The translations under genes were made by a program, and so were the position numbers. The notes beneath the pieces were generated by a model that was given only the letters and a program-made list of their open reading frames with translations, did not search any database and was not told where the DNA came from. A stretch of DNA of 64,000 nt, taken from the NCBI GenBank assembly GCA_964016885.1, contig OZ024741.1:67890001-67954000 (forward strand), written 5' to 3'. Shown piece by piece: positions 4,878 through 62,432 of this stretch; position 1 is the stretch's first letter; each line of letters opens with the position of its first letter. This stretch comes from Eledone cirrhosa. Its lineage: Eukaryota.

Positions 4878-5064
4878 GGGCGGTGGTTTGGCAGTATCGG
4901 TAGAGCATCAGACACCATGTTTTGCAGTATAGTTATGGCCCTTTGCGTTCTGAGTTCAAATCCGCCGAGGTTAACTTTGCCTTTCATCCTTACGAGGTCG
5001 ATAAAATAAATTACCAGTGCTGCACTGGCGTAATCGCTGACCTTGTGCCAAAAGTAGAAAAACT
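4878..5064 (+). mobile_element. tRNA-derived SINE (main family)
   Basis: A-box-like TGGCAGTATCGG, B-box GAGTTCAAATCC, core ctttgcctttcatccttacgaggtcgataaaataaa and tail ccttgtgccaaaagtagaaa. Confidence 0.85.
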
Positions 5065-5115
5065 ATATATATATATGTGTGTGGGGGGGGGGGGGGGTGC
5101 GTGTGTGTGTGTATA

Positions 5116-5213
5116 CCTGGTGTCCAAAAAATGTATGCACACTTTGAATACCTGTACAGCTAATAGTTCTTAAAATGTTGTTGAAGTGTGTATACAATTT
5201 TTGGGACACCCTG
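5116..5213. mobile_element. 98-bp Tc1/mariner-type MITE
   Basis: TA|cctggtgtccaaaaaatgtatgcacactt ... aagtgtgtatacaatttttgggacaccctg|TA. Imperfect TIRs of about 29 bp and a TA target duplication. Confidence 0.75.
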
Positions 5214-5261
5214 TATATATATATATGTGTGTGTGTGACCTATATGCCAATATGTTTTTGT

Positions 5262-5600
5262 GGGTGCAGCATGTCCGAGTGGTTAGGATATTCGCTTCGC
5301 AATCATTAGGTCCCGGGTGCGATTAGCGTGCATGGCATCATTGGCAAGTGTCATTTATCATAGAGTTGGTTTGACCCCTGCCTTGTGAGGGAAAATAGTA
5401 AGACAGAAACTGTTTGCGTGTCTTTTAGAAGGACTGTAGATGTTATTCAAAGGGCCAACCTTGACAGACTGAATTTCTTTGAGAATTACGTTAAGGATAC
5501 ACATGTCTATGGAATACTCAGCGATTTACATGAAAATTTCATGAGCAATTTCTTTCGTTGATCGAACAACTGGAACACGCCTCACTGAACCAACGAAGGT
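5262..5600 (+). mobile_element. Second SINE family (degenerate tRNA-like head)
   Basis: gcagcatgtccgagtggttagg...ggtcccgggtgcgatt head followed by a ttggcaagtgtc...gccttgtgag...agacagaaactg body. A different tRNA-like head occurs at about 10938-11025. Confidence 0.5.
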
Positions 5601-5658
5601 TTATGCAATAGGTGCTACTTTTGATTTTGTACTTTTTGTTATTATTTTTCCATGTATG

Positions 5659-5880
5659 GGGGCGGTGGATTGACAGTATCGGTAGAAAGTAGGACACCAT
5701 GCTTTGCAGCATAGAGTTACGGTCCTTTACGATCTGAGTTCAAATCCCGCCGAAGTTAACTTTGCCTTTCATCGTTACGGGTCGATAAAATAAAGCACCA
5801 GTCACGCACTGGGGTCGATTTAATCGACTTCCCCTCCCCCAAAATTGCTGCCTTTGTGTCTATATAAGAAACCATTATTT
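5659..5880 (+). mobile_element. tRNA-derived SINE (main family, long variant)
   Basis: Same head and core plus a ggggtcgatttaatcgact insert. Ends in agaaaccattatt. Confidence 0.85.
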
Positions 5881-6090
5881 TTCCATGTATGATTCTAGGA
5901 GATTTAAATGTTATTTCTTGACGATCGAGCGACATCCCGGGTGCTCGCTTGTTTGCTTATGTTGTTGTTATTATTGGTGTAGTTATTGTTTTCGTTGTTT
6001 CTTTTCTTACTGTTTCAGATAATGAATAATTCATGAAACGTGTATTGGTATTGTGCAAGGGAGATAATAAGATAACTAACGTTTACAAGA

Positions 6091-6186
<96 letters not shown>

Positions 6187-8009
6187 CGGAGTCTCAGTGT
6201 GTGGGTTTCTGTGTACAGAGGTGGGAATAATATGTTAACAATTCTCAGAGCTCACAACTGAAATATCTCATTATAGTTGATCAGTGAAAAGATATGCAAT
6301 AACGCGTTGAGATAATGTTCTACCTGTATAGAAAATAGCAAGACAAGTGGTGGCAAAAAACATTTACTACTACCATTGTTATTGACAGTGTTGATGTTAC
6401 TGTTGTTTTTATGTCCCAGAACAGATTCAGAAGACTCATGTTCAAAGGCGTTCCGGTCGTAAATATTTCATCTTATAATATTGAAACTATATTTTTCTTC
6501 TTTATTTAAGACAGTCGGAGCAGCCACGTAAAAGCTCGCTCGTATTTAAACACAATTATGACCTTATAGATTACACAGCCATGATAAGTTTATGTTTATA
6601 CATAGGTATAGATATAATTTACATATAGGGGATATTTTTTATATTTTGATTACTTTTCTACCTGGTCATATGTATTACAAGTTATAATTCATGTTGTTTC
6701 TGTAATATTGTGGCGTAAGTGTGCTTGGTATACGGATTTTATGCATCTTATTTCTATTACGTTTTTTACAGAAAAACGAAATCGAGCTGTTTTTATTTCG
6801 ATTTATTTATAGTTGTAATCAGAAGAAAGTTAGGCTCTCATTTCTAGAACATTGACACCACGTAAAGCATCCCTCTTGTTGCTGTTGTTTAAACCTAGAT
6901 CTCGGGGCAATCTGACCGTGGAGATCCCACATTTTTGTATATAAGGAACTAAATGGTCCTTCTTTCTTTAAAATAGTAGTGTGTATTTCAATGCAGATTT
7001 GATTGAAGTTTCGAGCAAATGAAACAAAGACAGAGTTTTCCTCTTGTTGATACCAAGTCGCAGGAGAGTTCTAAGTAAGCCTATGTTCAATGTCTGTGAA
7101 GTTGTAACCATTTAATATTTCTTATTTTACGCAATGTGTCCTTCCTATTAAATGTAAAAGGTGAAAGGGTATGTGAAATGTCGCAAACCGACAAAGTATC
7201 CTTTGTAGTATACTTTTTTAGAAATGCCTTCTGTATTTAGTTATGCTTCGTTACGTTCTATGTCCCAAATCCCGTTTGATTGATTTTGTTCTTGTGTTTG
7301 TTTTGCTACAGGTCAGCCCTAAATAAGCAGACCTATGATTCAAGGCTTCAACGAGGTTTCAACCGTGAACATTCCATCCTATTTGTAGGAGATTACTTTG
7401 TCAAATGCGTACCTCATTTTGTTAAATGGTACGGTGGGATTCCAGAAAGGCATCTCTGTCGATAAAATAACGAGCATTTATGTATGGGTGGTAATTTCAA
7501 TTGACAACAAGGTTACTTCTGAAAATTGACATATTATAATCTCTGTAATCTTTATTGATTTATGTATTCATTTATAATTTTGCTCTATTATTAAAATCAC
7601 ATCAGCCCTTTCATAAATTGTGACTATCCAGTTTTGTCTCTATTATTTTTCTTCAGAAGTTACAGCCTTTTATGTTCTGAATTGAATCCAGCTGGCATCT
7701 TATACTTCTATTATAATTTAATTCACATTTAGGATGTTTTTATGAATATTAAATCAGTCTTTCCTTTGAAATTTGAAAGACAAATTTGACCTGGTCTGGG
7801 TGAAAGTTGAACTTTGAAATTAATAGACCCTCCTTTTGTTCAAGGTTCAAAAGATTCTCAAATTCCAGTGTCATGTCTAGACATGTAATACTCGTTTTAT
7901 TTGCATGCATGTATGGACTCGTAACTCCTGACAGAATCACAGGGATGCCGTAATGTCATGCAACATGTGTTGGGAATCTTTAAACTGGCGGAGCCCATCC
8001 CCTCTCCAG

Positions 8010-8046
8010 TTCTGAACACGACCGCCATATACCTGAGAAGGAGAAA
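8010..8046 (+). CDS. Candidate upstream exon of the RING gene (SEHDRHIPEKEK)
   Basis: GC-richer, non-repetitive island. Possible acceptor cccatcccctctccAG (8008-8009) and donor AAA|GTGGGT at 8047. The phase-0 end is compatible with the 32672 exon. The 5' boundary is uncertain (see findings). Confidence 0.4.
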
Positions 8047-9031
8047 GTGGGTGTGATAGAGAGGAGAGGACTTGAAAAAGAGATATAGAAGAAGCATCGG
8101 CCCAGTACTAGACTGGTACTTTTTATGGACCTCGAAAGGATGAAAGGCAAATTCGGCCTCGACGGAGTTTTAACTCACAGCCCAGAGAGTTGGAACGAAT
8201 ACCGCAAAACGTTCTATCCGATGTAATAATCATTCAGCAAATTCATTGCCTACTGGTTTCATTTGCCACAATTATAGACGTTATAATTCTTTCTGGCATT
8301 GATACAAGGCCAGCAATTTAGGCAAAAGGAAAAGTCGATTATATGAACCACAGTACTTAACCGGTATTTCATTATATCGACCCTGGAAGGATAAAAGCAA
8401 AGTTAATCTCGGAGGGATTTCAACTCAGGCGGTAAAAAGTAATAACCAAATACCGCAAAGCATTCTGCCAAATGCTCTACCACCCCATATTTTTGACGTA
8501 CAATATTAATCATTGTCTAATATTCTTATTTCCCCTCACCACCTTATTATTTCCAGTTAGATTGTTATTGAGACTAACTTAGCTGTTGTTTTTCATGTGC
8601 ATGATATATGAGTTATTTATTCTCAAAATAATGTTATACTCTAAACCCCTAGGCCAGCCAATGTAAATTATTGTACTATGTACTTAGCCGGCAATACTAA
8701 TTATTTGTTACGCTTGAGTGGTAATTCTGCCCAATTGAGGTATTTAAGCAGGAATTATTTAATCTAAATCATTCTTTTTTCACAAGAGCAGTGGATATTA
8801 GAATGTGTTTAGAACGCATTTTAAGGTCTCAGTTCAAGTCCTTCGGGTGGAAAGATCGACTTTGACTATCGACCTTATTTGTATCGACACAAATAAGTAC
8901 TATTCAAACAATATGGCCGAGTAAATCGTCTGAAAAATTGACACAGAATTTGTTTCCATATTCCAACGTGAGAAATGATTATTTTTGATGATTGCAAAGG
9001 AATGTAGATGTGTTTTTACTATGTGTGTGTG

Positions 9032-17816: not shown

Positions 17817-18025
17817 GGGCGGTAGATTGGTAGTATTGACAATACTTTGCAGCATAAAGTTACGGCCCTTTATGGTCTGAGTTCAAATCCTCCCGAGGTT
17901 AACTTTGCCTTTCATCCTTACGGGGTCGATAAAATAAAGTACTAGTCACGCACTGGGGTCGATTTAATCGACTTTGCCCTTCCTCAAAATTGCTGGCCTT
18001 GTGCCTATATAAGAAACCATTATTT
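17817..18025 (+). mobile_element. tRNA-derived SINE (main family, long variant)
   Basis: B-box GAGTTCAAATCC and core present. Tail ccttgtgcctatataagaaaccattatt. Confidence 0.85.
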
Positions 18026-25203: not shown

Positions 25204-25388
25204 AATAATAATGATTTCTACTTTAGGCACAAGGCCGGCAATTTTGGAGAGGGGGCATTACTAAAGCTTTATTTTATCGACCTTGTAAGGATGAAAGGCA
25301 AAGCTAACCTCGGTATGATTTGAACTCAGAACGTAAAGGGCCGTACTCTCTGCCGCAAAGCATGGTGTTCGACGCTCCACCGATTCTG
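25204..25388 (-). mobile_element. tRNA-derived SINE (main family)
   Basis: The minus-strand tail reads ggccttgtgcctaaagtagaaatcattattatt. Core and B-box are recognisable. Confidence 0.8.
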
Positions 25389-25927
25389 CAAAATGATAAT
25401 GATTGTTACTTTAGGCGCAAGGTCAGCAATTTTGAGAGAAAAGTTGCTTACATCGATCTCAGCACTTTACTGATCCTATATATTATCGATTCCGGCCAGA
25501 AGGTAAAGAACCGGAAGAATAATGCCATGTATTTGCCAAACGCACTAACGACTCTGCTAATGCACCGCCCCTGTGAAATGAATAATAATGAACATTTTGT
25601 TATCGAGTATTTTGATATATGTGATCTAAAATCATACTTAAACTTTTTTTATTAATAAAGTCACCATTTTTATTATGCTATTCATGTTAACGTTGACTTT
25701 AGATTTATGTATGGCTATACTATAAGACTTATTTTCAGGCTTGATAATGTCATTGTTTTTATACTGTTTTTGATTTTGTTCTTGCACTTCTATCTTTACT
25801 TTATAACTTTAGTATATCATAAATATCTCTGATTTCCTCAGAGATGCTTCCATTCTTTGCTAGATCAGCCCCAAATGATATAAGTATGTATGTGAAGTGA
25901 ATTATATATATATATATATATATATGT

Positions 25928-37124: not shown

Positions 37125-37503
37125 TTGATGTTGCTGTTTCTATATTATTCGTTGTGTAACGTTCTTCTGATCGCTGTGATGGTGGAGGGGATTAGGGAGA
37201 GCTGGTGGAGGGGGTTGCGTTGAGATTATAGTAGGGGAGATGATCTGGGTTGGTAGGGTGGTATGGGATGACTGAGATTGGTTAAGACAGTTGAGATGAT
37301 GAGATGGATGGGTGGTTGGCAGCAACACAGCATTATGGGGAAAACATTTAATGGAAATCTCAGATTTAATAACAGAAGGATAAAAATAGGTAAAGAATCA
37401 AAACAAAGAAAAAAATAACAAATACGTTTATGTTCGTAATGACTAGAGCGTATATTCTTTTTTGTTTTCTAATTTCATTGAATATATTATTATTATCATT
37501 ATT

Positions 37504-37896
37504 TGGCAGTATCGGTAGAGGGTCGGACGCCATGCTTTGACGCACAGAGTTACAGCCCTTGCCATTCTGAGTTCAAATCCCGCCGAGGTTAACTTTGCCT
37601 TTCATCCTTACGGGGTCGATAAAATAAAGTACCAGTAATACACTGGGTAATTGCTGGCCTTGTGCCTAACGTAGAAACAATTATTATTAAGAAATCAAGG
37701 TTTGGCAGTATCGATAGAGGGCCGGACGCCATGATTTGCAGCATAGACTAACGGCCCTTTACAGTCTGAGTTCAAATCCCGCCGAGGTTAATTTTGCCTT
37801 TCATCGTTACGGGGTCGATAAAATGCACCAGTAATGCACTGAGATTATTGCTGGCCTTGTGCCAAAAGTAGAAACAATTTTAAGAAATCATCATCG

Positions 37897-37938
<42 letters not shown>

Positions 37939-38407
37939 CTGTTCAGTAGATTGGCAGAATCGGTAGAGCGTCGGACAACATGCTTCGCGGCACAAAGTTA
38001 CGGCCCTTTACGTTCTAAGTTCAAATCCCGCCGAGGTTAGCTTTGCCTTTCGTCCTTAAGAGGTCGATAAAATAAAGTACCAGTAACGCACTGAGGCCGA
38101 TTTAATCGACTTTCCCCTTCCCTTCAAATTGCTGGCCTTGTGCCTAAAGTAGAAACAATTATTATCATCATTATCCTCTTCATTCTCATCACCATTAATA
38201 TTGCTATAAGCGATGGATTGGCAGTATCGGTAGAGGGTCGGACGCCATGCTTTGCAGCGTAGAGTTACGGCCCTTTATTGCGTGAATTCAAATCCCGCCG
38301 AGGTTAATTTCACCTTTAATCCCCTTACGAGGTCGATAAAATAAGGTACCAGTAATACACTGAGATAATTGCTGGCCTTGTGCCAAAAGTAGAAACAATT
38401 ATTATTA
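37504..38407 (+). mobile_element. Head-to-tail array of four SINE copies
   Basis: Copies at about 37504-37689, 37702-37880, 37946-38165 and 38206-38407. Each has a TGGCAG(T/A)ATCG head and B-box and ends in gtagaaacaatt. ATT- or GTT-type tracts lie before and between them. Confidence 0.9.
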
Positions 38408-48027: not shown

Positions 48028-48139
<112 letters not shown>

Positions 48140-48140
48140 T

Positions 48141-50495
48141 ATTGTTATTGTTCTTTGAGTCTCAGTCATTGATGTTAGTTAACTGGAAAGTTTGTTGAAA
48201 TGAATATCAAGCCACTACCTGCAGCCTCAGATATTCAGGACGTATCGGAGGGTTCTTGCTGTTCCCAGCAAGCATGCCTTTTGAAGCGTTCCAAAAAGCG
48301 TGAAGGGGCCAATTTTCTTTAACCATCCCTGGAAACTTTTTGAGATAGTACCTAGTGCGCCTATGACAATCGGGACCACTTTGACTTCATGGCAGTTCCA
48401 AATCGTTTTTACCTCCCACTTTAAGTCCTGGTATCGGTTAATTTTCTCCCTCTCCTTCTCTTGCACTCTCGTGTCGAATGGGCAGGCCACATCCACAATC
48501 AGGCACGATCTTTTTTCTTTGTCCACAACCACCAGGTCAGGTCTATTGTGTTCCAGTTTCTTGTCCGTCTGTATCCTAAAATCCCACAGCACCTTCACCT
48601 GATCGTTTTCTATCACCGACTCTGGCTTATGCTCATACCACTTCTCAGAATGTGGTAAATTGTTTACTTTGCATAGGTGCCAGTGGATCACCCTGCCCAT
48701 CACATCATGTCTCCAGTCCTTATAGTGAGTCTGGGCTAGGTGTTTACACTCGGATACAATGTGAGCCACAGTCTCCTCTCTCTCTCCACAGATCATGCAC
48801 AGTGGGCTATCCTCCTCCTTGTAAATATGGTGTTTCAACCACTTCGTTTTGAGGGCCTGCTCTTGCGCAGCCATTAACATTCCTTCTGTAGCATTTTTAA
48901 GGTCTCCTCTTTTCAACCAGTTCCATGTCTGTGGATCTCTGAATTCAGTTTTCTCAAAGAAGGTACTATGAAGGGATTTTTCCTGAAGGCTGCTCTTTCT
49001 CCTTGATGTTATTTCCTCCTTGGACATCCCCTGGTCTATTGTCCTCTCCTTGAGTACAGTTATGAGCATTCGCTCCTTACTATCAGTCACGTATTTGTGT
49101 AGGTTGTTTTTCTCCATCTGAACACAGTTCTCTATGCTGATAAGACTTCTTCCACCTTCAGATCTCCCTAAGTAGAGTCTATCGACATCACTCCTCTTGT
49201 GGAACATGTTGTAGATAGTCAATAGCTTCCTAGTCTTCCTATCCATTTCTTTTTGTTCAGCAACATTCCATTTCAGAATTCCCGCACTGTACCTAATAAT
49301 AGACACAGCTCGGGAATTTACTGCACTTATGGCATTCCTACTGTTCAGATGTGACTTTAATACGCTCCTTACTCTCCGAATGTATTCAGATCTTATCAAT
49401 TCCTTCATTTTTTTGTTCTTGATGTCATCAGCCTCCAGAACACCCAAATACTTGTATCCTTCTTCAATGTCAATTTCCTTTATCATCTCACCTGTTTGTA
49501 CCTGGATTCCGTTGCTTCTGCTCAATTTACCCGTCTTCATCACAAGGACTCCACACTTACTAAATCCAAATTGCATACATATATCATTGCTGAAAATACG
49601 GACAGCGTCAACAAGCAGATTCAACTCCTTCTCACTCTTCCCAAAGAGCTTAAGATCGTCCATGAAGAGGAGGTGATTGATGGTAAGCCCTCCCTTTCCC
49701 AACCTGTATCCTGCTCTCACTTTTCGCAGTATACTGGTCAGGGGCATCAGAGCAAGGACAAACAACAGAGGGGACAGACTATCTCCCTGGAAGATACCTC
49801 TCTTGATCTTCACGCTTCCCAAGGATTCTCCAGCTGATGTTAACTCTGTTTCCCAGGACTTCATACTTTTGCCCAACAACTGTCTGATGTTATCTGCCAC
49901 CCTGAAGATCTCCAGGCTTTTGGTGATCCAAGAATGAGGCACCATGTCAAATGCCTTTTTGTATCTATCCATCCCATGGCAAGACCAGTGTGTCTCCTCT
50001 TGCAATTCCTCATTACCATCTTATCAATAAGTAACTGGTCCTTTGTACCACGGGACTTCTTTCGGCATCCTTTCTGTTCGTCCGGTAACAAGTTGTTTGT
50101 GTGGAGGTGATGGTAGATTTCCTCAGACATAATGCTTGTCAACAGTTTCCACATTACGGACAGACATGTGATAGGTCTATAGTTGGTAACATCATTACCC
50201 TTGATTCGGTCTTTCATTATCAGAACTGTGGTACCTTTTGTCAACCACTCTGGTACCTCACCTGACATCAAGCAGTCATTGAACATGGTTGTCAGTTTCG
50301 GGTGGAGGGATGTTATATTTTTAATCCAATACCCCTGCACACCATCTGGGCCTGGTGATCTCCAGTGGGTTAGTTTTTTGGCCTGCCCCTTAAGAGTTTC
50401 AACTGTGATACTCAAATCAGTTTGTTGGTGTGCCTGTTCACTAATCTCCTTCTGTACTGTCTCAATCCACACTGCCTGGTCATTATGTTTAACAT
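48141..50495 (-). mobile_element. R4/Dong-clade non-LTR retrotransposon copy A, 5'-truncated, one frameshift
   Basis: ORF pieces 49861-50472 and 48227-50005 encode RT (NYRPITCL, FQGDSLSPLLF, HLLFMDDLK), a CCHC finger (CMICGEREETVAHIVSEC), RHD and a restriction-like endonuclease (RPDLVV...IVDVACP...EKINRYQDL). A 1-bp deletion near 49963 relative to copy B breaks the frame. (TTA)n flanks both ends. Confidence 0.92.
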
Positions 50496-50730
50496 TATTA
50501 TTATTATTATTATTGAATGCTATGGTTGACGGAGGCTCGGCTCTGTAAGGTATTGTAAATTTTGAACGCTATAATAATTGTAAATTGTTTAAAACTTTAA
50601 CGAACTTGTAGACAAAAACACCCTCCTCCTCGTGAGAAGGGTCTTTCTGTCCGTTATTTGGCCCTTCGGGGTTAAATAACTGCTTATTGGGGTTTTGTGC
50701 CCAATATTTATTTTAAACAAAAAAAACAAC

Positions 50731-52824
50731 ATGGCTACGAAAAAGAATTTTCATACGTCACTCCCACTCATTCCGTCTTCTTCTTCCTCAATCATCACTA
50801 CAGCAGAGAGAAGATTGTCTCTCTCCCTCCCTTCTTTAAATGTGTCTCTCTCCCTCCCTTCTCTTTCGCAAGCGACGACAGAAAAGAAAAGTCTCGTGCA
50901 GAGCGTGCAAGATTTCTCCACGACGACAACAACGACGAAACAGGTGTGCGGGAAATACGAAAACCCATTTCATTCGTCTGACGTCAGGAATAATAGCAGT
51001 AGCAGCCGTAATAACAACAGCAACAGTGACAATGAAAACAACAGTAGCAGCCGCAACAGCATCACCAGCAGCATAAATAACAACAGCATTAGCAGCAGCA
51101 CACCAACAACAACCACAGCAACAGCGGCGGAGGCAGTAGTCGTAGTACCTGCAGCAATAACAAAAGTAACAGCAGCTCTGACGACGACAACAACAACAGC
51201 AGCAAAGAAAAACCAATCTCGTTTGCAGGTATCGCGAAGAACCTGGAAACAATCCTCATAACAAATGAGGAATTAGAGGAAGCGAAGAAGATGGTGACAA
51301 AGACTGGACACCGAGCAATCTGCAAGGCAGCGGGAAAATTTTTCGAAACCCAACAGCACTGTACGGTCACGTACCGTACAGTAAGTACAAAATCCCGTAG
51401 GGTTGAAAGAGCCACAGAGGCTCAAATACAAAAAGCCTTGGGGTCTGTGTGGCAGCGGAAAACGCACATCACCCGAGGCAAAAAATATGCCACCGTAGAC
51501 GTACTTTTTGCCACACCCCAGGAGGCAAAGGCTCAATCCGTAGTGACCCTAAGGAGCGAGGAAATGGTGTTGGTGCCCTCCTACTGCGGGCAAAAAATTG
51601 TGAGGGTCAAACTGACCCACGTCCCCCCCCGGGATGGCCCCTTCTTAGCTGGCCGCGTCTGTCCTCGTCGGAATCGAGGACAAAACAACTGTACTGCAAG
51701 TACAGAAAAAAGTAAGAGAAGATTGGGTCGGCACCTCCATTGAGATGTTAATCCAAACCAACCAGGAGTGCATCGAAGCTATCCCGGATGTGATAGACTT
51801 CGATAACGGCACTCAACTGCCCATAAGTGTTGAGTGCAAACGCCCGAAATGCTTTTGCTGTGGATCGAAGACTCACCTCAGGGCCTTCTGCAACGAGAAG
51901 ACCCTGAGAAAGGAGAAAACCCCCCTCCTTCCGAAACCGGCTCCACGGCTACCAGCAACAGGACAAGCGGCAACCAGGAACGATAGGTCCGTGGCACCCA
52001 TACCCACGGAAATCAAAAACAGCAGCAGCAGTGGAAATATTAACAACAACAACAGCAATACCAAATGCAGCTGCAACAGAGACTCCAGTGCAAACATCAC
52101 CAACAACAACAAGTGAAAGAGTGGAGCTGGTACCCCTCCCCGACCTCACAGAATCAGACATGGAGTGTGAGGTGGGAGAGGGATGGCAAAAGGTCGTAAG
52201 AAGGCACAAACGCAGAAGCAGCGCATCGTCGCCTTTGAAAAGGGAGGAAAGAAATAAGAAAAGGGTAAAGTCTACTGCAAAGAGACTCACACAGCAACAC
52301 CACCAACACCATCACCACCCACACTAGCACCACCATCACCACCGGCGAAAACCCCACCGCCAACAACACCTTCAACGCCACCACCACAAGCACCAACATC
52401 GCAAACACAACAACAAAACACACACACCCAGCAACAACGACAAGAAAATAGCAGAACCACACCCCACCCCCAGAAAAACAAATGCATGGCAATAAATACA
52501 CACAACAAGAAACTAATGACTTACATAATTGAACACACAGACATTTCACAACAGGACTACATAATACCAGCACCAATCAAAACGCCAACTAACATAAGAC
52601 TGCTAAAAATAGCACAGAAACAATACACAAACATTAAAACGAAATTCCCCAACGCAGTTGGTGATTTCAGGGACCTAGGAGGAACTATCAATCGAAGAGT
52701 ATATTCGGACATACTCATAGAAGAGCCGACAACCAGCGGAAGGGACGCTTCAACAGTCCCTTCACCAGACGATCAAGTGAAAAGGGATGTAAAAACCATC
52801 CCTCCTCTACCAAAAGTACGGTAA
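50731..52824 (+). pseudogene. Tx1 ORF1 (gag-like nucleic-acid-binding protein), disrupted by several frameshifts
   Basis: ATG at 50731 (MATKKNF). Fragments at 51291-51743, 51745-52116 (CFCCGSKTHLRAFC, a CX2CX4HX4C knuckle), 52031-52327 (GWQKVVRRHKRR) and 52486-52824 lie in different frames. The stop is 35 nt before the ORF2 ATG. Confidence 0.75.
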
Positions 52825-52859
52825 GTGGTCTTTCCCATCTTTTCCACTCTATTTTAAAC

Positions 52860-55800
52860 ATGACCTCACTCAGAATAGACAGCATAAATGTGCGTGGCTT
52901 GGGGTCGTCATGGAAGCAGGGTCACCTGCTCAACGACCTCAGGTCACTAAACATAGATGTAGTGGCCATCAGCGAGACCAGAATCTCCAAAGCACGGGCC
53001 TTCGCACCGATCTTCGGCGGCTACGATGTGTACGCATCTCCCAGCCGTCGTGGATCGGGGGGAGGAGTTGCTGTGCTTTTTCGGAGAGGTTTGGATCTCG
53101 CCATACGGTCCATCTTCCTGGACCCAGAGGGTAAGCTGGTGGTGCTGGACGTGACCAGCGGAGACGGGCAAGCTTTCAGGCTAGTGGCCGTCTATGCCCC
53201 GACAGGAGCAGGGCGGCCTGATTTCTTCCGGCGTCTGGAGACCTTTCTTGGAACGTCCCGCTCTTTAGTGTTAGTGGGCGACTGGAACGGGATCTTAGAT
53301 GCACGCTGGGACTGTGTGGGATTAGCGGATAGGGGTGGAGGGTGCAAGAGCCTCACCAACCTGCTCAGGCATTTTGAACTGTCTGACAGGTACCGATTGG
53401 ATTTCCCGAATGTGCCAATGTGGACTTGGAAAAATCGCATAGGGTCATCCAGATCATATCTAGATAGAGTATTTTGTAGGGAAATAGATAGGTCTAGCAT
53501 AGGCTGTCCACAATTCAAGATAGTCAGCTACACGGACCACAAATTCGTGATCTGTGTGCTTGACTTAGATAGGTTTCATAGACGAGGACCCGGCTACTGG
53601 AAGCTAAACGCGTCCTTACCAGCGCGCAAGGCCTACAGAGACCGGATTAGCAAACTAGTTAAGCGGGCGTTGACGGGGGCCATCGTCAACAACAAGTGGT
53701 GGTTTGCTCTGAAAAGAGCGATTAGAATAGAATCGATCAGGTTTAGTAAGGCTTTAGCAATAGAGAAAAATAGAGCAGAGGAGAACTAGTTAGAAAATTA
53801 GACGAGGCGCTTAGCAAAGGCATTGCGACCGACGTGCTTGCGGCGAAATTGGCCCTTGACCAATTGTTCAATGCAAAGCACGAAGGCTGCGTTGTCAGAG
53901 CAAGGGTGCGTGCTCTCAGACACGAGGGAACGAAAGCCGTTCAATGGGCCCGAGTGGCGGAGGCGCGTCGTGGCAACAAAGCCACGATCCGGTCTTTGGT
54001 GGACCACGACGGGCGCATGCTACTCGATCCCGGGCAAATGTGTGAAGCTTTTCAGCGACATTTCGCTCAGCTGTTCGGGGGCAGCGGTGGGCCGGGTCGA
54101 GGGATGGACTTTAGTATCTACCTCGACGGACTGCCGCGGCTCTCGGCCACTGAGGCGAAGTGTTGCGAAAAGCCGATAACAGCCGTTGAAGGAAGGGAGG
54201 CAATGACTGGCTGCATAAGGGGTAAATCGCCTGGTTTTGATGGTCTGCCCTATGAACTTTACGTACAGATGCCAGACTTGTTCGGAGGCCTCTTGGCGGA
54301 CGTCTTCTGCAACTGGCAACAGAACGGGAGAATTCCCGGTTCTGTGAGCCGAGGAGCGGTGGCACTGCTGAGAAAGGATCCGAACAAGGGGGATAACATA
54401 GAAAATTTCCGGCCCATAACTCTGCTAAACACAGAGTTTAAGATTTTGGCCAAGGTGCTAGCAAAGAGGTTGGCGCTTGTCGTTGGTGGTCTGGTGGGAG
54501 AGGCGCAGACATGCGCCATTCCCGACAGATCCATCCACGACAACCTCCACCTCATGCGATACATCGTAGAGAGGGTAGCTAGGGAACCTGGCACGGGTGG
54601 GTCCTTGATCAATTTAGATCAGTCGAAAGCTTTCGATAGGGTCGACCATCGTTACCTAGCGGCAGTCCTGAGGGCGGCTGGCTTTGGGCCCGTCTTCAGA
54701 GGCTGGATCGCTGCCATGCACAGCGACATCTGCTCTGTGGTGAGAGTGAACGGTCACCTTTCGGAACCGTTCAACATCATGCGCTCGGTCCGCCAAGGAT
54801 GTCCCCTCTCGTCCCTCTTGTACGTATTGACTCTCGAGCCATTACTGCACAAACTGGAGACGTTGAGGGGCGTCCCGCGTGAACTAGGATGCGGAAGATC
54901 CGTGTCAGCATATGCGGACGATGTCACCGTAGTGGTGTCGAACGCCAAACACATCGAGGCGATCGGCACTACACTAAGAGAATACGAAGCGGTTACAAGA
55001 GCAATGATCAACCAGTTAAAGTCACTGGGCCTGCAGCTCGGCACCTGGAGAGGCAGGTCCATGCCGTCCAACAGCGTCGTCGGACGCTGGACGGACGGAC
55101 CGGTTCAGTTGCTAGGGGTCTGGTTCGGTCCGGACCTCCAGACGGACAAAAACTGGGACGAGGTGACGAGCAGGGTGGCTTCTCTCACCCAGAAATGGGC
55201 GGAGAGGAAGCTATCCCTGAAAGGTCGAGCGGAGGTGGCTAACGCGTACATCGCGTCTGTCATCTGCTACCGCCTGACCGTCGTACCTTGTCCTAAGCCT
55301 CGCCTGACTGCGCTGGAGCGTTTGCTCTTTCGCTTTTTGTGGAAGGGACGTGCTCCGATGGTCAGGCGGTCCATCTGTTGTCAACACCCGCTACTTGGAG
55401 GGCTGGGCAGGCCGTGGCTGATGATGCGCAGGCACGCGCTCAGGCTACGACATCTCCACCTCTTCCTCGACGGTGATCAGGTGTGGTCGCCGTTTGCTAG
55501 ACGCGTATTTCCCCAGCTTGTTTCCTTGACGGAGCTGCAGTCCTGGGTCAAGCGAAGACCGAGAGGGAGCGCCTGGAGATTGGAATGTCTTCAGGCGCTC
55601 ACAGCCCTCGACCAATCGGGCAATGTGATCGGTGGAAACTCCACCTCGGCGTTCTATAGAGGATTAGTGGAGGGGAAGAGCGACGACGTACTTGGGGAAA
55701 CTCTAGGCGTCGACGAAAATCAACTAGCCAATCTCTTCGGAAGAACTTTCGGGCCAGGGCCTATGGACAACTTCCAGAAATCTCTGGCCTGGCAGTGCTA

Positions 55801-56278
55801 CCGAGGAGCCTTGCCAGTTCGGGATAAACTCTACAGGCATGGAGGTGCCGTCAGCCGGGCATGTCCGAGATGCGCGCAGGGCGACGAAACCGTCCTGCAC
55901 GCACTCGTCCAGTGTCCGAAAATTGCTGACTTGTGGGTTTATGTCGAACACCTGCTGTCGCGTTTAGGACGGATCCGGCTATCATCTGAGTCCATCGTGA
56001 GGATTGCCCCGCCCTCCTCCTTTAGCCGGGAAGGGCAGGCAGTTTTTATCTGCCTGGTGGCCATGGTGAAAGAGATAGTATGGTGGACACGTTTGAAAGG
56101 GCTGAAGACGAGCACTTACCTCTTCGGCGATGCTCTGATTGACTTTTTCAAATTTCATTTGAAAAGGAAAATCAGAGTAGAGAGGGAAGTGCTCTCTTCC
56201 CAGCATTTTGTTGAAAGATGGGTGAGAGAAGCAAGAATGGCCCGAGTGAATGGGCCTACTCTGAGTATATATCTGTAA
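52860..56278 (+). pseudogene. Tx1 ORF2 (APE endonuclease + reverse transcriptase) with a single frameshift near 53780
   Basis: 52860-53789 has APE motifs (SINVRGL, VAISET, VYAP, LVGDWN, SYLDRVF, TDHK, GYWKLN). 53834-56278 has KSPGFDGLP, NFRPITLLN, LDQSKAFDRVDH, VRQGCPLS, YADD and CPRC...ETVLHALVQC. The second frame is already open from about 53783 (ELVRKLDEAL). Confidence 0.9.
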
Positions 56279-56540
56279 ATTAAAGGTGGAAAACTGGGAG
56301 AGGGCACTTGCCTTGGTGGTCAGGGTCATTGTGGCTTTTTACTGGGCTTTCTCCACAAATGTCCCTCCGAAGTCTGCCCCCTATTGGGGAATTTTTCATT
56401 GTTATTTTTTGTTACATCCTCTGTTTTTGTTTTTTACACGCAGAAATGCCCATTTGTACCGTCCTGCATTGTCCTGCACTGTCCTTAATGTCTACTTTAT
56501 GTAAACCCTTGTGGTTAATAAAGAAATCATTATTATTATT

Positions 56541-59500
56541 ATTGTTATTGTTATTCCTTGAATCTCAGTCATTGATGTTGGTTAACTGGAAAGTCCGTTG
56601 GATTGAATATCAAGCCACTACCTGCAGCCTCAGATATTCAGGACGTATCGGAGGGTTCTTGCTGTTCCAAGCAAGCATGCCTTTTGAAGCGTTCCAAAAA
56701 GCGTGAAGGGGCCGATTTTCTTCAACCATCCCTGGAAAACTTTGGAGATAGTCCCCAGTGCGCCTATGACAATCGGGATCACTTTGACTTCATGGCAGTT
56801 CCAAATCCTTTTCACCTCCCACTTTAGGTCCTGGTATCGGTTAATTTTCTCCCTCTCCTTCTCTTGCACTCTCGTGTCGAACGGGCAGGCCACATCCACA
56901 ATCAGGCACGATCTTTTTTCTTTGTCCACAACCACCAGGTCAGGTCTATTGTGTTCCAGTTTTTTGTCCGTCTGTATCCTAAAATCCCACAGCACCTTCA
57001 CCTGACTGTTCTCCATCACCGCCTCTGGCCTATGCTCATACCATTTCTCAGAATGTGGTAGATTGTTTACTTTGCACAGGTGCCAGTGGATCACCCTGCC
57101 CATCACATCGTGTCTCCAGCCCTTATAGTGGGTCTGGGCTAGGTGTTTACACTCGGACACAATGTGAGCCACAGTCTCCTCTCTCTCTCCACAGATCCTG
57201 CACAGTGGGCTAGCCTCCTCCTTGTAGATATGGTGTTTCAACCACTTCGTTTTGAGCGCCTGCTCCTGCGCAGCCATTAGCATTCCTTCTGTAGCCTTTT
57301 TGAGGTCTCCTCTTCTCAACCAGTTCCATGTCTGTGGATCTCTAAATTCAGTTTTCTCAAAGAAGGTACTATGAAGGGATTTTCCCTTAAGGCTGCTCTT
57401 CCTCCTTGATGTTATTTCCTCCTTGGACATCCCCTGGCCTACTGTCCCCTCCTTCAGTACAGTTCTGAGCATTGGCTCCTTACTATAGGTCACGTATTTG
57501 TATAGGTTGTTTTTCTCCATCTGAACACAGTCCTCTATGCTGATAAGATCTCTTCCACCCTCAGATCTCCTTAGGTAGAGTCTATCGACATCACTCCTCT
57601 TGTGGAACATGTTGTAGATAGTCAATAGCTTCCTAGTCTTCCTATCCATTTCTTTTTGTTCAGCAACATTCCATCTCAGAATTCCCGCACTGTACCTAAT
57701 AATAGACACAGCTCGGGAATTTACTGCGCTTATGGCATTTCTGCTGTTCAGATGTGACTTCAATACGCTCCTTACTCTCCGAATGTATTCAGTTCTTAAC
57801 AATTCCTTCATTTTTTTGTTCTTTATGCCATCAGCCTCCAGAACGCCCAAATACTTGTATCCTTCCTCAGAGTCAATTTCCTTTATCATCTCACCTGTTG
57901 GTATCTGGATCCCGTTACTTCTGCTCAACCTACCCCTCTTCATCACAATGACTCCACATTTACCAATACCAAACTGCATACATATATCACTGCTGAAAAT
58001 ACGGACAGTGTCAACAAGCACATCCAACTCCTTCTCACTTTTCCCGAAGCGCTTAAGATCGTCCATGAAGAGGAGGTGATTGATGGTAAGCTCTCCCCTT
58101 CCCAACTTGTATCCTGCTCTCACTTTTCGCAGCATAATGGTCAAGGGCATCAGGGCAAGGACAAACAACAGAGGGGACAGGCTATCTCCCTGGAAGATAC
58201 CTCTCTTGATCTTCACGCTTCCCAAGGATACTCCAGTTGATGTCAACTCTGTCTCCCAGGACCCCATACTCCTGCCCAGCAACTGTCTGATGTTATCTGC
58301 CACCCTGAAGATCTCCAGGTTTTTGGTGATCCAGGAATGAGGCACCATGTCAAATGCCTTTCTGTAGTCTATCCATCCCATGGCAAGATCAGTGTGTCTC
58401 CTCCTGCAATTCCCCATTACCATCTTATCAATAAGCAACTGGTCCTTTGTACCACGTGACTTCTTTCGGCATCCTTTCTGTTCGTCCGGTAACAAGTTGT
58501 TTGTGTGGAGGTGATGGTAGATTTCCTCAGACACAATGCTCGTCAACAGTTTCCACATTACGGGCAGACATGTGATAGGTCTATAGTTGGTAACATCATT
58601 ACCCTTGATTCGGTCTTTCATTATCAGAACTGTGGCACCCTTTGTCAACCACTCTGGCACCTCACCCGACACCAAGCAGTCATTGAACATGGCCGTCAGC
58701 TTCGGGTGGAGGGATGTTAAATGTTTAATCCAATACCCCTGCACACCATCTGGGCCTGGTGATTTCCAGTTGGTTAGTTTTTTGGCTTGCCCCTTAAGAG
58801 TTTCAACTGTGATACTCAAATCAGTCTGTTGTTGTGCCTGCTCACCGATCTCCCTCTGTACTGTCTCAATCCACCCTGCCTGGGCATTGTGTCTAACATC
58901 CTGCTCCCATATTCCTCTCCAGAATGTTTTAGCTTGTTCCGCCCCAGGGATCAAGTCGTTGCCTCTTTCTTTCCCCCCAAGCTGTCCAAACAGCATCTTC
59001 TGGTTGTTGTCGAACATGCGGTTCTGTTTATACTGACTGACTCTGTTCTCGTATCGCCTGATTTTTGCACTCTTTGCTACAATGCGTTGCTTCAATTCCT
59101 CTATGATAATATTTAGCTTTTTACTCCTAGTTTTGTATTTTATTTCCAGTCTATTTTTAGTGCCTATGTTTTTTAGTGTCCCATTCAGTAGTGACTCAAG
59201 CTTTCCTATGTCATTTCTCATTTCCCCGATTTGCCCACTCAGTCGCTTCTTCCACCACGGCTCTGCTCTTTCTTGTCTGTTGTTTCCTCTCGCTTTTATA
59301 CCAAGTAGTTTCCTCACCGTATATGCTGTTGCTTTGAGGATATTGTTGCACTGGTGAAGGCTCCTCGCCTCAAGGTATGGGATGACTTTGTTTACCTTAG
59401 CTGTTGTTTCTTTTAACTTTTTCCTGTCTACAAATCTTAGGTTCATAGGTCTCCCACTATCATTGTTCAATTCATCTACCACTAAATTTAGGATGTCAAC

Positions 59501-59786
59501 CGAATCTTGTCCTAGCCCGTCAGCATTCATCTCCTCAGTGGCCGTATCTCTGTTCCAGGTATTATTTATCTCAGTATTCAGATCATTGTCTGCTTCGGGT
59601 GGTTCCTCCGTTCTCAGGACCTCCTCACCTTCATTTCCCATCGGCTCGCTTGTCTGGCATACTACACCCGCCATCTCCAAGCCATTCTCTCTGCTCAGTT
59701 CCTCCAGTTCCAGCTCGCTTATCCACCCATTAGTTCTTATTACCCGAGCCTGCCCGGCCAATTTTTGTTCATCTAATTTAAATAAA

Positions 59787-59787
<1 letters not shown>
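56541..59787 (-). mobile_element. R4/Dong-clade non-LTR retrotransposon copy B, slightly 5'-truncated
   Basis: It is colinear with copy A and shares the same short 3' UTR. The 5' end breaks off just upstream of EQKLAGQARVIRTNGW and runs into (TTA)n at 59788-59843. Confidence 0.93.
56630..59761 (-). CDS. R4/Dong polyprotein (RT + CCHC + restriction-like endonuclease), uninterrupted 1043-aa frame lacking its native N-terminus
   Basis: Motifs include WKSPGPDGVQGYW, GWIDYRKAFDMVPHSW, GIFQGDSLSPLLF, HLLFMDDLK, YKYLGV, CRICGEREETVAHIVSEC, RHD and RPDLVV. The track start is TTG, not ATG. Confidence 0.88.
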   Translation of the reverse strand: MAGQARVIRTNGWISELELEELSRENGLEMAGVVCQTSEPMGNEGEEVLRTEEPPEADNDLNTEINNTWNRDTATEEMNADGLGQDSVDILNLVVDELNNDSGRPMNLRFVDRKKLKETTAKVNKVIPYLEARSLHQCNNILKATAYTVRKLLGIKARGNNRQERAEPWWKKRLSGQIGEMRNDIGKLESLLNGTLKNIGTKNRLEIKYKTRSKKLNIIIEELKQRIVAKSAKIRRYENRVSQYKQNRMFDNNQKMLFGQLGGKERGNDLIPGAEQAKTFWRGIWEQDVRHNAQAGWIETVQREIGEQAQQQTDLSITVETLKGQAKKLTNWKSPGPDGVQGYWIKHLTSLHPKLTAMFNDCLVSGEVPEWLTKGATVLIMKDRIKGNDVTNYRPITCLPVMWKLLTSIVSEEIYHHLHTNNLLPDEQKGCRKKSRGTKDQLLIDKMVMGNCRRRHTDLAMGWIDYRKAFDMVPHSWITKNLEIFRVADNIRQLLGRSMGSWETELTSTGVSLGSVKIKRGIFQGDSLSPLLFVLALMPLTIMLRKVRAGYKLGRGELTINHLLFMDDLKRFGKSEKELDVLVDTVRIFSSDICMQFGIGKCGVIVMKRGRLSRSNGIQIPTGEMIKEIDSEEGYKYLGVLEADGIKNKKMKELLRTEYIRRVRSVLKSHLNSRNAISAVNSRAVSIIRYSAGILRWNVAEQKEMDRKTRKLLTIYNMFHKRSDVDRLYLRRSEGGRDLISIEDCVQMEKNNLYKYVTYSKEPMLRTVLKEGTVGQGMSKEEITSRRKSSLKGKSLHSTFFEKTEFRDPQTWNWLRRGDLKKATEGMLMAAQEQALKTKWLKHHIYKEEASPLCRICGEREETVAHIVSECKHLAQTHYKGWRHDVMGRVIHWHLCKVNNLPHSEKWYEHRPEAVMENSQVKVLWDFRIQTDKKLEHNRPDLVVVDKEKRSCLIVDVACPFDTRVQEKEREKINRYQDLKWEVKRIWNCHEVKVIPIVIGALGTISKVFQGWLKKIGPFTLFGTLQKACLLGTARTLRYVLNI

Positions 59788-59843
<56 letters not shown>

Positions 59844-59980
59844 GTTAACCTCGGCGATTAAGCCCTTGCCATTCTGAGTTCGAATCCTTTCATCCTTACG
59901 GGGTCAATAAAATAAAGTACCGGTAATGAACTGGTTAATTGCTGGCCTTGTGCCAATAAGTAGAAACAATTATTATTATT
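59844..59980 (+). mobile_element. Rearranged, truncated SINE inserted in the (TTA)n tract next to Dong copy B
   Basis: A short inverted piece (gttaacctcggcg) precedes cccttgccattctgagttcgaatcc, the core and the tail agaaacaattattattatt. Confidence 0.75.
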
Positions 59981-60896: not shown

Positions 60897-61427
60897 ATAA
60901 TTGTTTCTACTTTTGGCACAACGCCACCAAATACCCAGTACATTACTGGTTCTTTATTTTATCGACCCCGTAAGGATGAAAGGCAAAGTTTACCTCAGCG
61001 GGATTTGAACTCAGACCATAAAGCGAGGTAACTCTATACTCAAAGCATGGCGTCCGATTCTCTACCGATACTGCCAATCCACCGCCCTGTTATAATATAA
61101 TGAAATAAAATTATGAAGATGTATAACTATATGCATCAAAATATGAATATTTGTTAAGCCTGTAATTTCCTCGGGTCCCATTAGTTGTTATTATTATTAT
61201 TAAGGGAGGTGGATTGGCAGTATTAGTATAGTGTCGGACAACATGCTTAGTGACATATAGTTACGGCTCTTTACAGCCTGAGTTCAAATCCCGCCGAGGT
61301 TAGCTTTACCTTTCATCCTTACAGTGTCGCTAAAATAAAGTACCAGTCACGCACTAGAGTCGATTTCATCGACTTTCCCATCTCCCGAATAGCTGGCTTT
61401 GTGTCTATAGTAGAAATCATTATTATT
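60897..61427. mobile_element. Inverted (head-to-head) pair of full-length SINEs
   Basis: A minus copy at 60897-61088 and a plus copy at 61203-61427 lie about 115 bp apart. Confidence 0.85.
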
Positions 61428-62117
61428 GCTGTTACTGTTGTTGCTATCCTCAGCATTATCACCATCGTCATTGTCATCATATACATTAATCCAGTATCAA
61501 CAAACTTGTACACCTATGGATACTATATCATTACAAAATAGGAAACAACTCTTGAAGAAACAAGAGTTATACAACCTTCTCACAATGTTTGACAACATTA
61601 TTGCAGATATCTGAATCTATGCACTTCTATCAAATTTGTGTACATTATACAAACATTGGACTATATCACGACAAGCGTGTTTGGCTTTATGCTGAAATAG
61701 GACTATATCTTGCCACAATATATTTGACTTTACCTTCATATATGACTACAACCATCATATAATCTGTAGTCAGGTGAGATTGTTAAACACTTCAGCATCT
61801 TATGTATTTGCCCTTGCTCTAATATACCACTATATCCTTTCTCATAACCTGTAGTCTGTGCCAAAGTGATACTAGAACAATTGTGGCCATGAGCATATGT
61901 GGATTATAAACTTCCTCCAAAGTTTAAAATGATTCTATATACATTCTCAAAATGTCTGACATGTTATTAATATGAGTCTTTATTCTTCCGCAAAAAAATG
62001 TTGTCCTTCGGGTAATATGAAAGATAATAATTATTCTTGTTTGTTGTTATTATTGTTTATATTATCTGACCAGTATTTATTCACTTCTTAATTGATTTTT
62101 TTTATTGTTTTTTTCAG

Positions 62118-62432
62118 TGTGTAATATGTTTGGGCGCAAAAGCAACGATGCAAACTTTCCCTTGTGGACATCGAGTTGTATGCCGGAAGTGCTTCATAAA
62201 AACCATCCAGGTGGCTGTGTCGCAACGATGCTTGCCCCTAAGGTGTGTCATTTGTCGAACGCGCATACTGAAATTGAGACAGAACCCCAAACCCCATTCA
62301 GACAAGCGAGAAGCAAGTGGTGGGAGCAAACATGAAAAGAGTGACGGCAAATCATCGTCACATAAAGATAGGAAAAGTGGTAAATCTGCGCTGGAGAAGG
62401 CAGTTAAATCGGAAGGAAAATCAAAATATTGA
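62118..62432 (+). CDS. Terminal coding exon of a small C3HC4 RING-finger protein (putative E3 ubiquitin ligase)
   Basis: A long polypyrimidine tract ends in TTTTCAG at 62117. The phase-0 frame reads CVICLGAKATMQTFPCGHRVVCRKCFIKTIQVAVSQRCLPLRCVICRTRI, i.e. C-x2-C-x11-C-x-H-x3-C-x2-C-x17-C-x2-C (RING-HC with a PCGH motif). A K/S/E-rich tail follows, then TGA at 62430-62432. There is an AATAAA near 62579. Confidence 0.88.
   Translation, partial: CVICLGAKATMQTFPCGHRVVCRKCFIKTIQVAVSQRCLPLRCVICRTRILKLRQNPKPHSDKREASGGSKHEKSDGKSSSHKDRKSGKSALEKAVKSEGKSKY

What the first reader, a model, noticed from the sequence alone, without database searches (positions are those of the whole stretch)
56507..56540. 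The Tx1 element and the dominant SINE share the same 3' terminus: candidate ATT-targeting LINE/SINE partner pair
Seen: the Tx1 ends CCTTGTG-gttaataa-AGAAATC-ATTATTATT with no poly(A) tail. SINE copies end with the same two blocks and the same 8-nt spacing: CCTTGTG-cctaaagt-AGAAATC-ATTATTATT (25204-25235, minus), CTTTGTG-tctatagt-AGAAATC-ATTATTATT (about 61397-61427), CCTTGTG-cctatata-AGAAACC-ATTATT (about 17997-18024) and CCTTGTG-ccaaaagt-AGAAACA-ATTATT (about 38376-38403). Several SINEs are also preceded by ATT tracts (37487-37503, 61189-61201, 59788-59843). Established: many SINEs borrow the 3' end of their partner LINE, and some Tx1 elements are microsatellite-specific. Inference: this Tx1 family mobilises the most abundant SINE here and imposes its ATT target preference. 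The match is short and part of it is the ATT repeat itself.
Basis: partly seen in the sequence, partly recalled or inferred. Interest (0 to 1): 0.85.

Follow-up and report, generated by a model that had tools for sequence, protein, structure and literature searches.

The report
Octopod SINE shares Tx1 tail hairpin
A very abundant short jumping element, in what is likely an octopod genome, ends in the same short motif (a predicted small RNA hairpin) as the long Tx1 retrotransposons and leaves the same ATT-starting insertion scars, so Tx1 enzymes likely copy it, a pairing not found in the papers I could search.

Summary
The shared end is a predicted 3-4 bp hairpin with a CUUGU loop, 10 nt before GAAA, at the very 3' end of both elements. 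The stem differs by compensatory changes, which explains part of the 'N8' spacer. The ATT is target, not only tail. SINE and Tx1 both leave 8-20 bp duplications starting ATTA (34 of 104 and 12 of 55, above controls); an ATT-tailed CR1 does not (0 of 18). Of 10 LINE ends tested, only Tx1 ends match the SINE terminus.

Corrections: the commonest SINE end is AGAAACA, not AGAAATC. At least four ATT-targeting Tx1 families share the tail, so the partner is the lineage, not this family. The SINE accepts short ATTA(TT) seeds, while Tx1 sits in long arrays. An (ATCT)n-targeting Tx1 lineage has the same hairpin, yet SINEs almost never sit at ATCT. An RLE-type LINE matches equally well 49 nt inside its 3' UTR.

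Mobilisation is inferred (about 0.75), not shown. The scan reported this pairing before on other DNA of this genome. Verdict: new variant of a known kind.

The parts
50515..56528 (+). Full-length Tx1-group non-LTR retrotransposon (family A), about 6.0 kb; this copy has frameshifts in ORF1 and ORF2
   Evidence: PF03372, PF00078, PF13966; closest solved protein human L1 ORF2, E 1.6e-41, against R2 at 6e-20
50494..50514 (+). (ATT)7 directly upstream of the Tx1 5' end; likely the left target-site duplication
   Evidence: 7 units is the mode upstream of family-A 5' ends (16 of 39 listed rows, some loci listed twice)
52860..56278 (+). ORF2: APE endonuclease part (52860-53789) and RT/zinc-finger part (53774-56278), split by a frameshift
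   Evidence: other copies have an unbroken frame of 1,195-1,213 codons stop to stop (L087, L093, L100, L116)
56504..56516 (+). Predicted 3' hairpin: stem AACC/GGTT, loop CTTGT (56508-56512)
56517..56528 (+). AATAAA plus GAAATC, the 10-nt spacer and terminal block; the Tx1 3' end
56529..56555 (+). (ATT)5 and degenerate repeats shared by the Tx1 end and the oppositely oriented Dong-like end
56556..59786 (-). Dong/R4-like RLE LINE ending in (AAT)n, the opposite strand of the same microsatellite; not the SINE partner by polarity
   Evidence: the name Dong rests on its RLE-type C terminus (recalled motif) and TAA target (PMC3812793 passage)
48150..50493 (-). Second, 5'-truncated Dong-like copy abutting the upstream ATT tract
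5659..5873 (+). Full SINE copy with an 18-bp duplication starting ATTATT (5641-5658 and 5874-5891)
37495..38397 (+). Cluster of four co-oriented SINE copies, each ending in the hairpin motif plus AGAAACA
61200..61418 (+).
25213..25395 (-).
17840..18018 (+). 5'-truncated SINE copy with AGAAACC end (approximate 5' limit)
59848..59968 (+). Truncated SINE behind the (ATT)20 tract at the 5' end of the Dong-like copy

Best explanation
The SINE and the ATT-targeting Tx1 retrotransposons end in the same short motif, predicted to fold as a small CUUGU-loop hairpin ten bases before a terminal GAAA block, and both leave 8-20 bp duplications that begin with ATTA, so the Tx1 ORF2 protein likely binds the SINE RNA by this hairpin and copies it in trans. 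Inferred steps: (1) RNA polymerase III would transcribe the SINE through its end into the AUUAUU of the right-hand duplication. (2) Tx1 ORF2 would recognise the loop, while the stem only has to pair. (3) The APE endonuclease would nick the AAT strand at the start of an ATT run. (4) The freed DNA end would pair with the RNA's AUUAUU and prime reverse transcription, so no poly(A) is copied. (5) A second nick about 11-20 bp downstream would give the duplication. The partner is the ATT lineage as a whole (families A-D), not one family.
For: Terminal match: of 10 LINE 3' ends tested, all 5 Tx1 ends match four SINE ends at the terminus (13-17 of 22, p 0.0003-0.009); CR1, RTE and three RLE-type ends do not (6-10 of 22, p at least 0.2). 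Spacing: loop-to-GAAA distance is 10 nt in 155 of 161 SINE and 86 of 92 Tx1 ends (pattern allowed 9-11). Hairpin: the three inner pairs are kept in 145-154 of 161 SINE and 88-90 of 92 Tx1 ends; the second pair is G-C in the SINE and C-G in Tx1; the third is A-U in family A and G-C in the others. On 12 family representatives RNAalifold predicts this helix unprompted, and covariation is 0.443 against at most 0.136 for slid controls. Insertion scars reaching at least 3 nt past the ATT run: SINE 34 of 104 (4-20 bp, mostly 11-19; control mean 2.9, max 9), Tx1 12 of 55 (11-19 bp; control mean 1.4, max 5), CR1 0 of 18. ATTATT within 30 nt upstream of the 5' end: SINE 78 of 117, Tx1 37 of 64, CR1 6 of 51. 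Target polarity: 113 of 140 SINE ends not picked by an ATT pattern start ATTA and 92 start ATTATT; 11 of 13 in the window plus 20 arbitrary 10-kb stretches, against a background of 0.11% per position; Dong-like LINEs end in AAT. Both are young: Tx1 3' ends are 99-100% alike; the nearest-neighbour identity of 24 SINE copies has median 95%, up to 99.3%; intact ORF2 frames exist.
Against: The shared stretch is short (about 15 of 22 nt), far below the roughly 100 nt of a classical pair such as tobacco TS/RTE (PMC3747384 passage). The hairpin is no more stable than shuffles (z -1.0 to +1.4) and is the minimum-energy fold in 6 of 8 ends. The covariation rests on about three independent changes among 12 related sequences. 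Most SINE (70 of 104) and Tx1 (43 of 55) copies showed no duplication by my strict test; an earlier, cruder test gave Tx1 6 of 33 against a control maximum of 6. The Tx1 set was selected for short ATT runs, and many SINE copies came from flanks of ATT-rich loci. The SINE uses much shorter ATT seeds than Tx1. An ATCT-targeting Tx1 lineage has the same hairpin, so the hairpin alone does not pick the partner. Two CR1-to-SINE joints without duplication exist. My LINE survey was partial (10 ends).
Confidence: 0.75

Rival explanations
1. The young, abundant CR1-clade LINE, which also ends in (ATT)n, moves all or part of the SINE copies by recognising the ATT tail; the Tx1 likeness is a relic.
For: 7,528 exact CR1 ends followed by ATTATT; open 945-codon frames in many copies; CR1 is a frequent SINE partner (PMC3747384, PMC11481361 passages); two loci join a 3'-truncated CR1 directly to a SINE with no flanking duplication (1 of 30 RT-anchored copies, L139, plus L049); 70 of 104 SINEs show no duplication.
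Against: No terminal similarity (8-10 of 22, p at least 0.25); CR1 copies have no ATT upstream (6 of 51) and no ATT-starting duplication (0 of 18; only 7 of 51 with 6-9 bp matches at any offset), unlike the SINE. The joints can be deletions.
Confidence: 0.07
2. An unsampled LINE family (another Tx1/L1 branch, L2, Nimb, Hero or similar) with a closer tail is the real partner.
For: Only 10 LINE ends were compared; genome searches return only top candidates; a curated octopus annotation lists 47 recently active LINE families (PMC13282606 passage).
Against: All 60 loci read for the two motif forms were SINE (53) or Tx1 (7), so a third carrier of the motif must be rare; the Tx1 scars already match the SINE's.
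Confidence: 0.09
3. The SINE tail came from the ACAT-ending RLE-type LINE, whose 3' UTR holds a similar stretch; the likeness to Tx1 is secondary.
For: 15-17 of 22 identity, p 0.007-0.026 against shuffles of its last 300 nt; seen in 5 copies.
Against: The match lies 49 nt before the element's end, the element ends in (ACAT)n and not ATT, the CUUGU-closing stem is absent, and one such hit among 10 elements times 4 SINE ends is near chance.
Confidence: 0.04
4. The match is chance or convergence of AT-rich ends next to ATT repeats.
For: Short motif; weak folding energy.
Against: Fixed register, fixed spacing, compensatory stem changes and matching scars.
Confidence: 0.05

Closest known systems
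SINEU and Tx1-Mar of crocodilians (Kojima 2015, PMC4494074; read parts 1-3 of 5)
   Same: A SINE inferred to be moved by Tx1-clade LINEs because both share a target preference.
   Different: SINEU has snRNA heads and poly(A) tails, and the paper reports no LINE in Repbase similar to the 3' half of SINEU-1; copy numbers are in the thousands. Here the 3' end itself is shared, there is no poly(A), the target is ATT and there are over 130,000 copies.
Stringent SINE/LINE pairs with a 3' stem-loop: UnaL2, ZfL2-1 and ZfL2-2 (PMC4176376, passages)
   Same: Loop-specific, stem-tolerant recognition of a 3' hairpin followed by short repeats; the pattern of conservation here fits that rule.
   Different: Those are L2-clade LINEs with tested binding; here the LINE is of the L1/Tx1 group, the hairpin is only 3-4 bp and binding is untested.
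ZmSINE2/LINE1-1_ZM of maize and SINEX-3_CR/L1-1_CR of Chlamydomonas (PMC3747384, passages)
   Same: Rare L1-clade pairs with a shared tail; the monocot pair has a hairpin with compensatory changes and a conserved loop.
   Different: [quoted passage not shown]
Kibi (TC)n, Koshi (TTC)n and crocodilian (TTCC)n/(TTTC)n Tx1 families; Dong at TAA (PMC4494074, PMC3812793 passages)
   Same: Microsatellite-specific non-LTR elements; Tx1 copies here stack head to tail in one repeat type.
   Different: An (ATT)n-targeting Tx1 was not in these lists; TAA/ATT is listed only for Dong, which here uses the opposite strand.
Octopus tRNA-derived SINEs OK, OR1, OR2 (Ohshima and Okada 1994; seen only as citations) and MetaSINEs (PMC4824008, passages)
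   Same: Abundant octopod SINE with A-box- and B-box-like motifs; its central part resembles the Meta domain from recall.
   Different: I could not see those consensus sequences, so identity with a named family is untested; PMC4824008 states that MetaSINE partner LINEs were unknown.

Membership tests
L1/Tx1 group non-LTR retrotransposon | Two ORFs; ORF2 with N-terminal APE endonuclease, RT and C-terminal zinc finger | tested here: met
   (PF03372, PF00078, PF13966); closest solved protein is L1 ORF2
Tx1 clade | RT phylogeny groups it with Xenopus Tx1, Keno, Kibi and Koshi | not tested
Tx1 clade | Sequence-specific insertion with target-site duplication | tested here: met
   ATT on both sides of full-length copies; 11-19 bp duplications in 12 of 55
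SINE | Short, non-coding, high copy, 5'-truncated copies with a common 3' end and duplications | tested here: met
   About 190-230 bp
tRNA-derived SINE | [quoted passage not shown] | tested here: inconclusive
   A- and B-box-like motifs are visible by eye, but Rfam found no tRNA match in one locus
MetaSINE superfamily | 66-bp Meta central domain | not testable with these tools
   Likeness is recalled; motif searches of held supplements found nothing and file 1 of each paper was not searchable
Stringent SINE/LINE pair | Shared 3'-terminal sequence | tested here: met
   13-17 of 22 at the terminus, p at most 0.009, Tx1 ends only; short compared with classical pairs
Stringent SINE/LINE pair | Conserved 3' stem-loop with compensatory changes | tested here: met
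   energy not better than shuffles; few independent changes
Stringent SINE/LINE pair | Shared insertion signature | tested here: met
   differs in tolerance of short ATT seeds
Stringent SINE/LINE pair | ORF2 binds the tail and mobilises the SINE in trans | not testable with these tools
   Needs a binding or retrotransposition assay

The most novel reading that the evidence does not exclude
Octopod Tx1 LINEs are stringent, poly(A)-independent L1-group elements that share one hairpin handle but are kept apart by pairing between the RNA's 3' repeats and the nicked DNA. The SINE's AUUAUU end would then select the ATT lineage over the equally abundant ATCT lineage and let it use minimal ATTA seeds, so swapping six bases of RNA tail would switch both partner and target.
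Probability: 0.3. Interest if true: 0.68.

Novelty: new variant of a known kind. Interest (0 to 1): 0.45.

Why it matters
SINEs with L1-group tails are rare (3 counted in PMC3747384), and the one Tx1-driven SINE group I found in print, SINEU, was linked by target. A shared hairpin would give an animal case of strict RNA-tail recognition in the L1/Tx1 group and bear on Ohshima's question of whether strict recognition preceded the poly(A) mode of mammalian L1. It would also name the likely driver of a repeat with more than 130,000 copies, and the genome offers natural controls: ATT and ATCT Tx1 lineages with one hairpin, and CR1 and Dong-like LINEs on the same microsatellite. It remains an extension of a well-known principle.

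Tried and rejected
1. ATT tract at 56529 belonging only to the neighbouring Dong-like element: rejected, all 30 Tx1 copies end in ATT whatever follows.
2. Tx1 having landed in a SINE end and only appearing to share it: rejected for the same reason.
3. Dong-like partner: rejected on strand polarity and no tail match.
4. RTE partner: the one RTE end tested finishes in (ATG)n and does not match; other RTE families were not surveyed.
5. Empty sites: contigs of four public runs laid on 4500-6080 were swamped by SINE copies and gave no clean empty allele.
6. Tx1 tails from other animals: the metagenome scan confirmed no relative.
7. Searching the second Tx1 lineage as GATA in the sense strand gave only 4 and 3 matches; it reads ATCT in the sense strand (8,322 matches, some double-counted).
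8. Idea that the SINE lost AATAAA to avoid polyadenylation: dropped, since the SINE body holds another AATAAA upstream.
9. CR1-SINE joints as single template-switch insertions: no duplication around either, undecided.
10. The 'TX1' in PMC4176376 is a construct name, not the Tx1 clade.
11. Literature searches found no report of this pairing; Repbase, Dfam and subscription papers (Ohshima and Okada 1994, Kojima and Fujiwara 2004, Akasaki 2010) were not visible.

Full report
Observation. CCTTGTG-N8-AGAAATC with up to two mismatches occurs 14 times in the window against 0.39 expected. One match is the end of a 6.0-kb LINE at 50515-56528; the others are ends of short repeats. The LINE has an APE endonuclease, RT and zinc finger, and its nearest solved relative is L1 ORF2. 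The nearest named homologue is from Argonauta hians at 68%, so the genome is likely octopod (inference).

The Tx1 end is real and family-wide. All 30 best copies end in the motif followed by ATT repeats with no poly(A) (28, 2). Full-length copies also have ATT upstream, most often exactly seven units (16 of 39 rows, some loci twice), which fits a duplication of about 20 bp from the start of the tract. At least three more ATT families (B, C, D; about 70-82% alike to A in aligned parts) share the tail. The window copy is frameshifted, but four of six other copies checked have an unbroken ORF2 frame of 1,195-1,213 codons.

The SINE. Its commonest end is CCTTGTG-CC(A/T)AAAGT-AGAAAC-A, with 131,654 exact matches followed by ATTATT. 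All 60 loci read for these two patterns were this SINE (53) or Tx1 (7). By a crude motif count it outnumbered RTE-type ends 12 to 4 in 200 kb of arbitrary stretches. A- and B-box-like motifs are visible, but Rfam gave no tRNA match, and the Meta-domain likeness is recalled, not tested.

What is shared is a predicted hairpin. The constant part is a five-base loop, CUUGU, closed by C-G. The bases on either side pair but differ: AACC/GGUU in family A, GCC/GGC in B, GGCC/GGCC in C, GGC/GCC in the SINE. The three inner pairs hold in 145-154 of 161 SINE ends and 88-90 of 92 Tx1 ends, and the loop lies 10 nt before GAAA in 155 of 161 and 86 of 92. On 12 representatives RNAalifold finds the helix by itself, and the covariation score is 0.443 against at most 0.136 when partners are slid. 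Against this, the sequences are related, the independent changes number about three, the fourth pair fails in 8 of 12, and folding energy is no better than shuffles (z -1.0 to +1.4). A conserved loop on an exchangeable stem is the rule shown for zebrafish L2 elements (PMC4176376, passages).

The ATT is a target. Many SINE copies are flanked by direct repeats that begin ATTA and run into unique sequence. With a strict test (exact match, at least 3 nt past the ATT run, shuffled pairing as control), 34 of 104 SINE copies have one (mostly 11-19 bp; control mean 2.9, max 9). So do 12 of 55 Tx1 copies (11-19 bp; control mean 1.4, max 5); these came from 70 loci chosen for short ATT runs, 15 of which lacked a 5' end in hand. 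An earlier test on fewer Tx1 copies was not clear (6 of 33, control max 6). SINE ends not picked by an ATT pattern start ATTA in 113 of 140; many lie in ATT-rich loci, but the window plus arbitrary stretches gave ATTATT in 11 of 13 against 0.11% per position. I obtained no true empty sites.

Rival LINEs. A young CR1-clade family also ends in (ATT)n (7,528 exact ends). It has no tail match, rarely has ATT upstream (6 of 51) and leaves no ATT-starting duplication (0 of 18). Two CR1-to-SINE joints without duplication leave room for a minor role or for deletions. Dong-like elements, two of which flank the Tx1 in this window, end in AAT, the other strand. One RTE ends in (ATG)n and shares about 40 nt with a different short repeat (by eye), which shows what a classical pair looks like here. 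An ACAT-ending RLE-type LINE has a 15-17 of 22 match, as good as Tx1's, but 49 nt inside its 3' UTR and without the stem. At the terminus only the five Tx1 ends score (13-17 of 22, p at most 0.009); the five others give 6-10 of 22. The survey covered 10 ends and is incomplete.

First, a second Tx1 lineage targets (ATCT)n (8,322 pattern matches, some double; ORF2 link in 21 of 30 loci) and carries the same hairpin, with loop CUUGU or CCUGU. Yet only about 6 of the first 100 of 187 motif-plus-ATCTATCT matches are SINE (by eye; that pattern asks 8 repeat bases against 6 for ATT). The hairpin is therefore a general Tx1 handle and something else picks the ATT lineage. Second, Tx1 sits in long arrays (278 of 7,726 break right after ATTATTA), while only 22 of 140 SINE ends have four or more units. 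Both fit priming by pairing of the RNA's AUUAUU end with the nicked strand, but that step is inference.

Mechanism and odds. Shown: shared terminal motif, covarying stem, same polarity, same scar length, both families young. Inferred: Pol III read-through into AUUAUU, ORF2 binding of the loop, nick at the start of an ATT run, priming without poly(A), second nick 11-20 bp on. I put Tx1-lineage mobilisation at 0.75, an unsampled LINE at 0.09, CR1 at 0.07, chance at 0.05 and the ACAT element at 0.04.

Known and new. Tail-sharing SINE/LINE pairs are textbook, mostly CR1 and RTE, with only 3 L1-tailed SINEs in the 2013 review (PMC3747384, passages). SINEU is assigned to Tx1-Mar by shared target and has poly(A) (PMC4494074, parts 1-3 of 5). 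Bivalve SINE partners are CR1, CR1-Zenon, L2 and Nimb (PMC11481361, passages). Listed Tx1 microsatellite targets do not include ATT (PMC4494074; PMC3812793, passages). The octopus annotation paper lists active L1-Tx1 and SINE families without pairing them in the passages seen (PMC13282606). PMC4758252, PMC4824008 and PMC3531059 were seen as passages; one supplement file of each of the first two could not be searched and may hold the SINE consensus. Six searches found no report of this pair; Repbase and subscription papers were out of reach. Two earlier notes of this scan reach the same reading on other DNA of this genome; I had the hairpin and duplication results before that look-up, and they are not independent support. 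A third note led me to the ATCT lineage. Verdict: a real and probably functional pairing, a new variant of a known kind, interest 0.45.

Noticed in passing
window 48100-59970: Pile-up on one microsatellite: Dong-like (minus), (ATT)7, Tx1 (plus), ATT, Dong-like (minus), (ATT)20, truncated SINE. Two LINE clades use opposite strands of the same repeat.
   Followed up: partly
L318-L347 (e.g. L328:1489-1528): An (ATCT)n-targeting Tx1 lineage, about 60-70% protein identity to family A, with the same terminal hairpin and several subfamilies.
   Followed up: partly
L358 (minus strand, about 7019-8918) and L359:7953-9304: CR1 copies whose 3' end is replaced by a SINE at nearly the same CR1 position, with no flanking duplication; deletion or template switch.
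   Followed up: partly
L292, L306, L197, L210: Very short Tx1 insertions of about 22-27 bp that begin at the hairpin's 5' arm; three of the four have 18-19 bp duplications. Reverse transcription may stall or finish there.
   Followed up: no
L070:3000-8500 (minus) and L223 upstream of the SINE: An RTE LINE and a second short repeat share about 40 nt of 3' end plus (ATG)n: a likely classical RTE/SINE pair in the same genome.
   Followed up: no
L066, L073, L111, L177: RLE-type LINE ending in (ACAT)n with a 3' UTR stretch like the SINE tail, enclosed by a short inverted repeat, 49 nt before its end.
   Followed up: partly
L092, L096, L120, L081, L097: Family-A Tx1 ORF2 joined to a different 5' half at the same point just before ORF2 (L092, L096, L120), suggesting a recombinant family or 5' swapping.
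   Followed up: no
window 62070-62432: Exon-like frame with a RING-type cysteine pattern, likely part of a host gene whose intron holds these repeats.
   Followed up: no
window 4870-5060 and 5660-5880, runs X4, X6, X9: The SINE body is very abundant in runs labelled as three other organisms, so the family predates this species.
   Followed up: no
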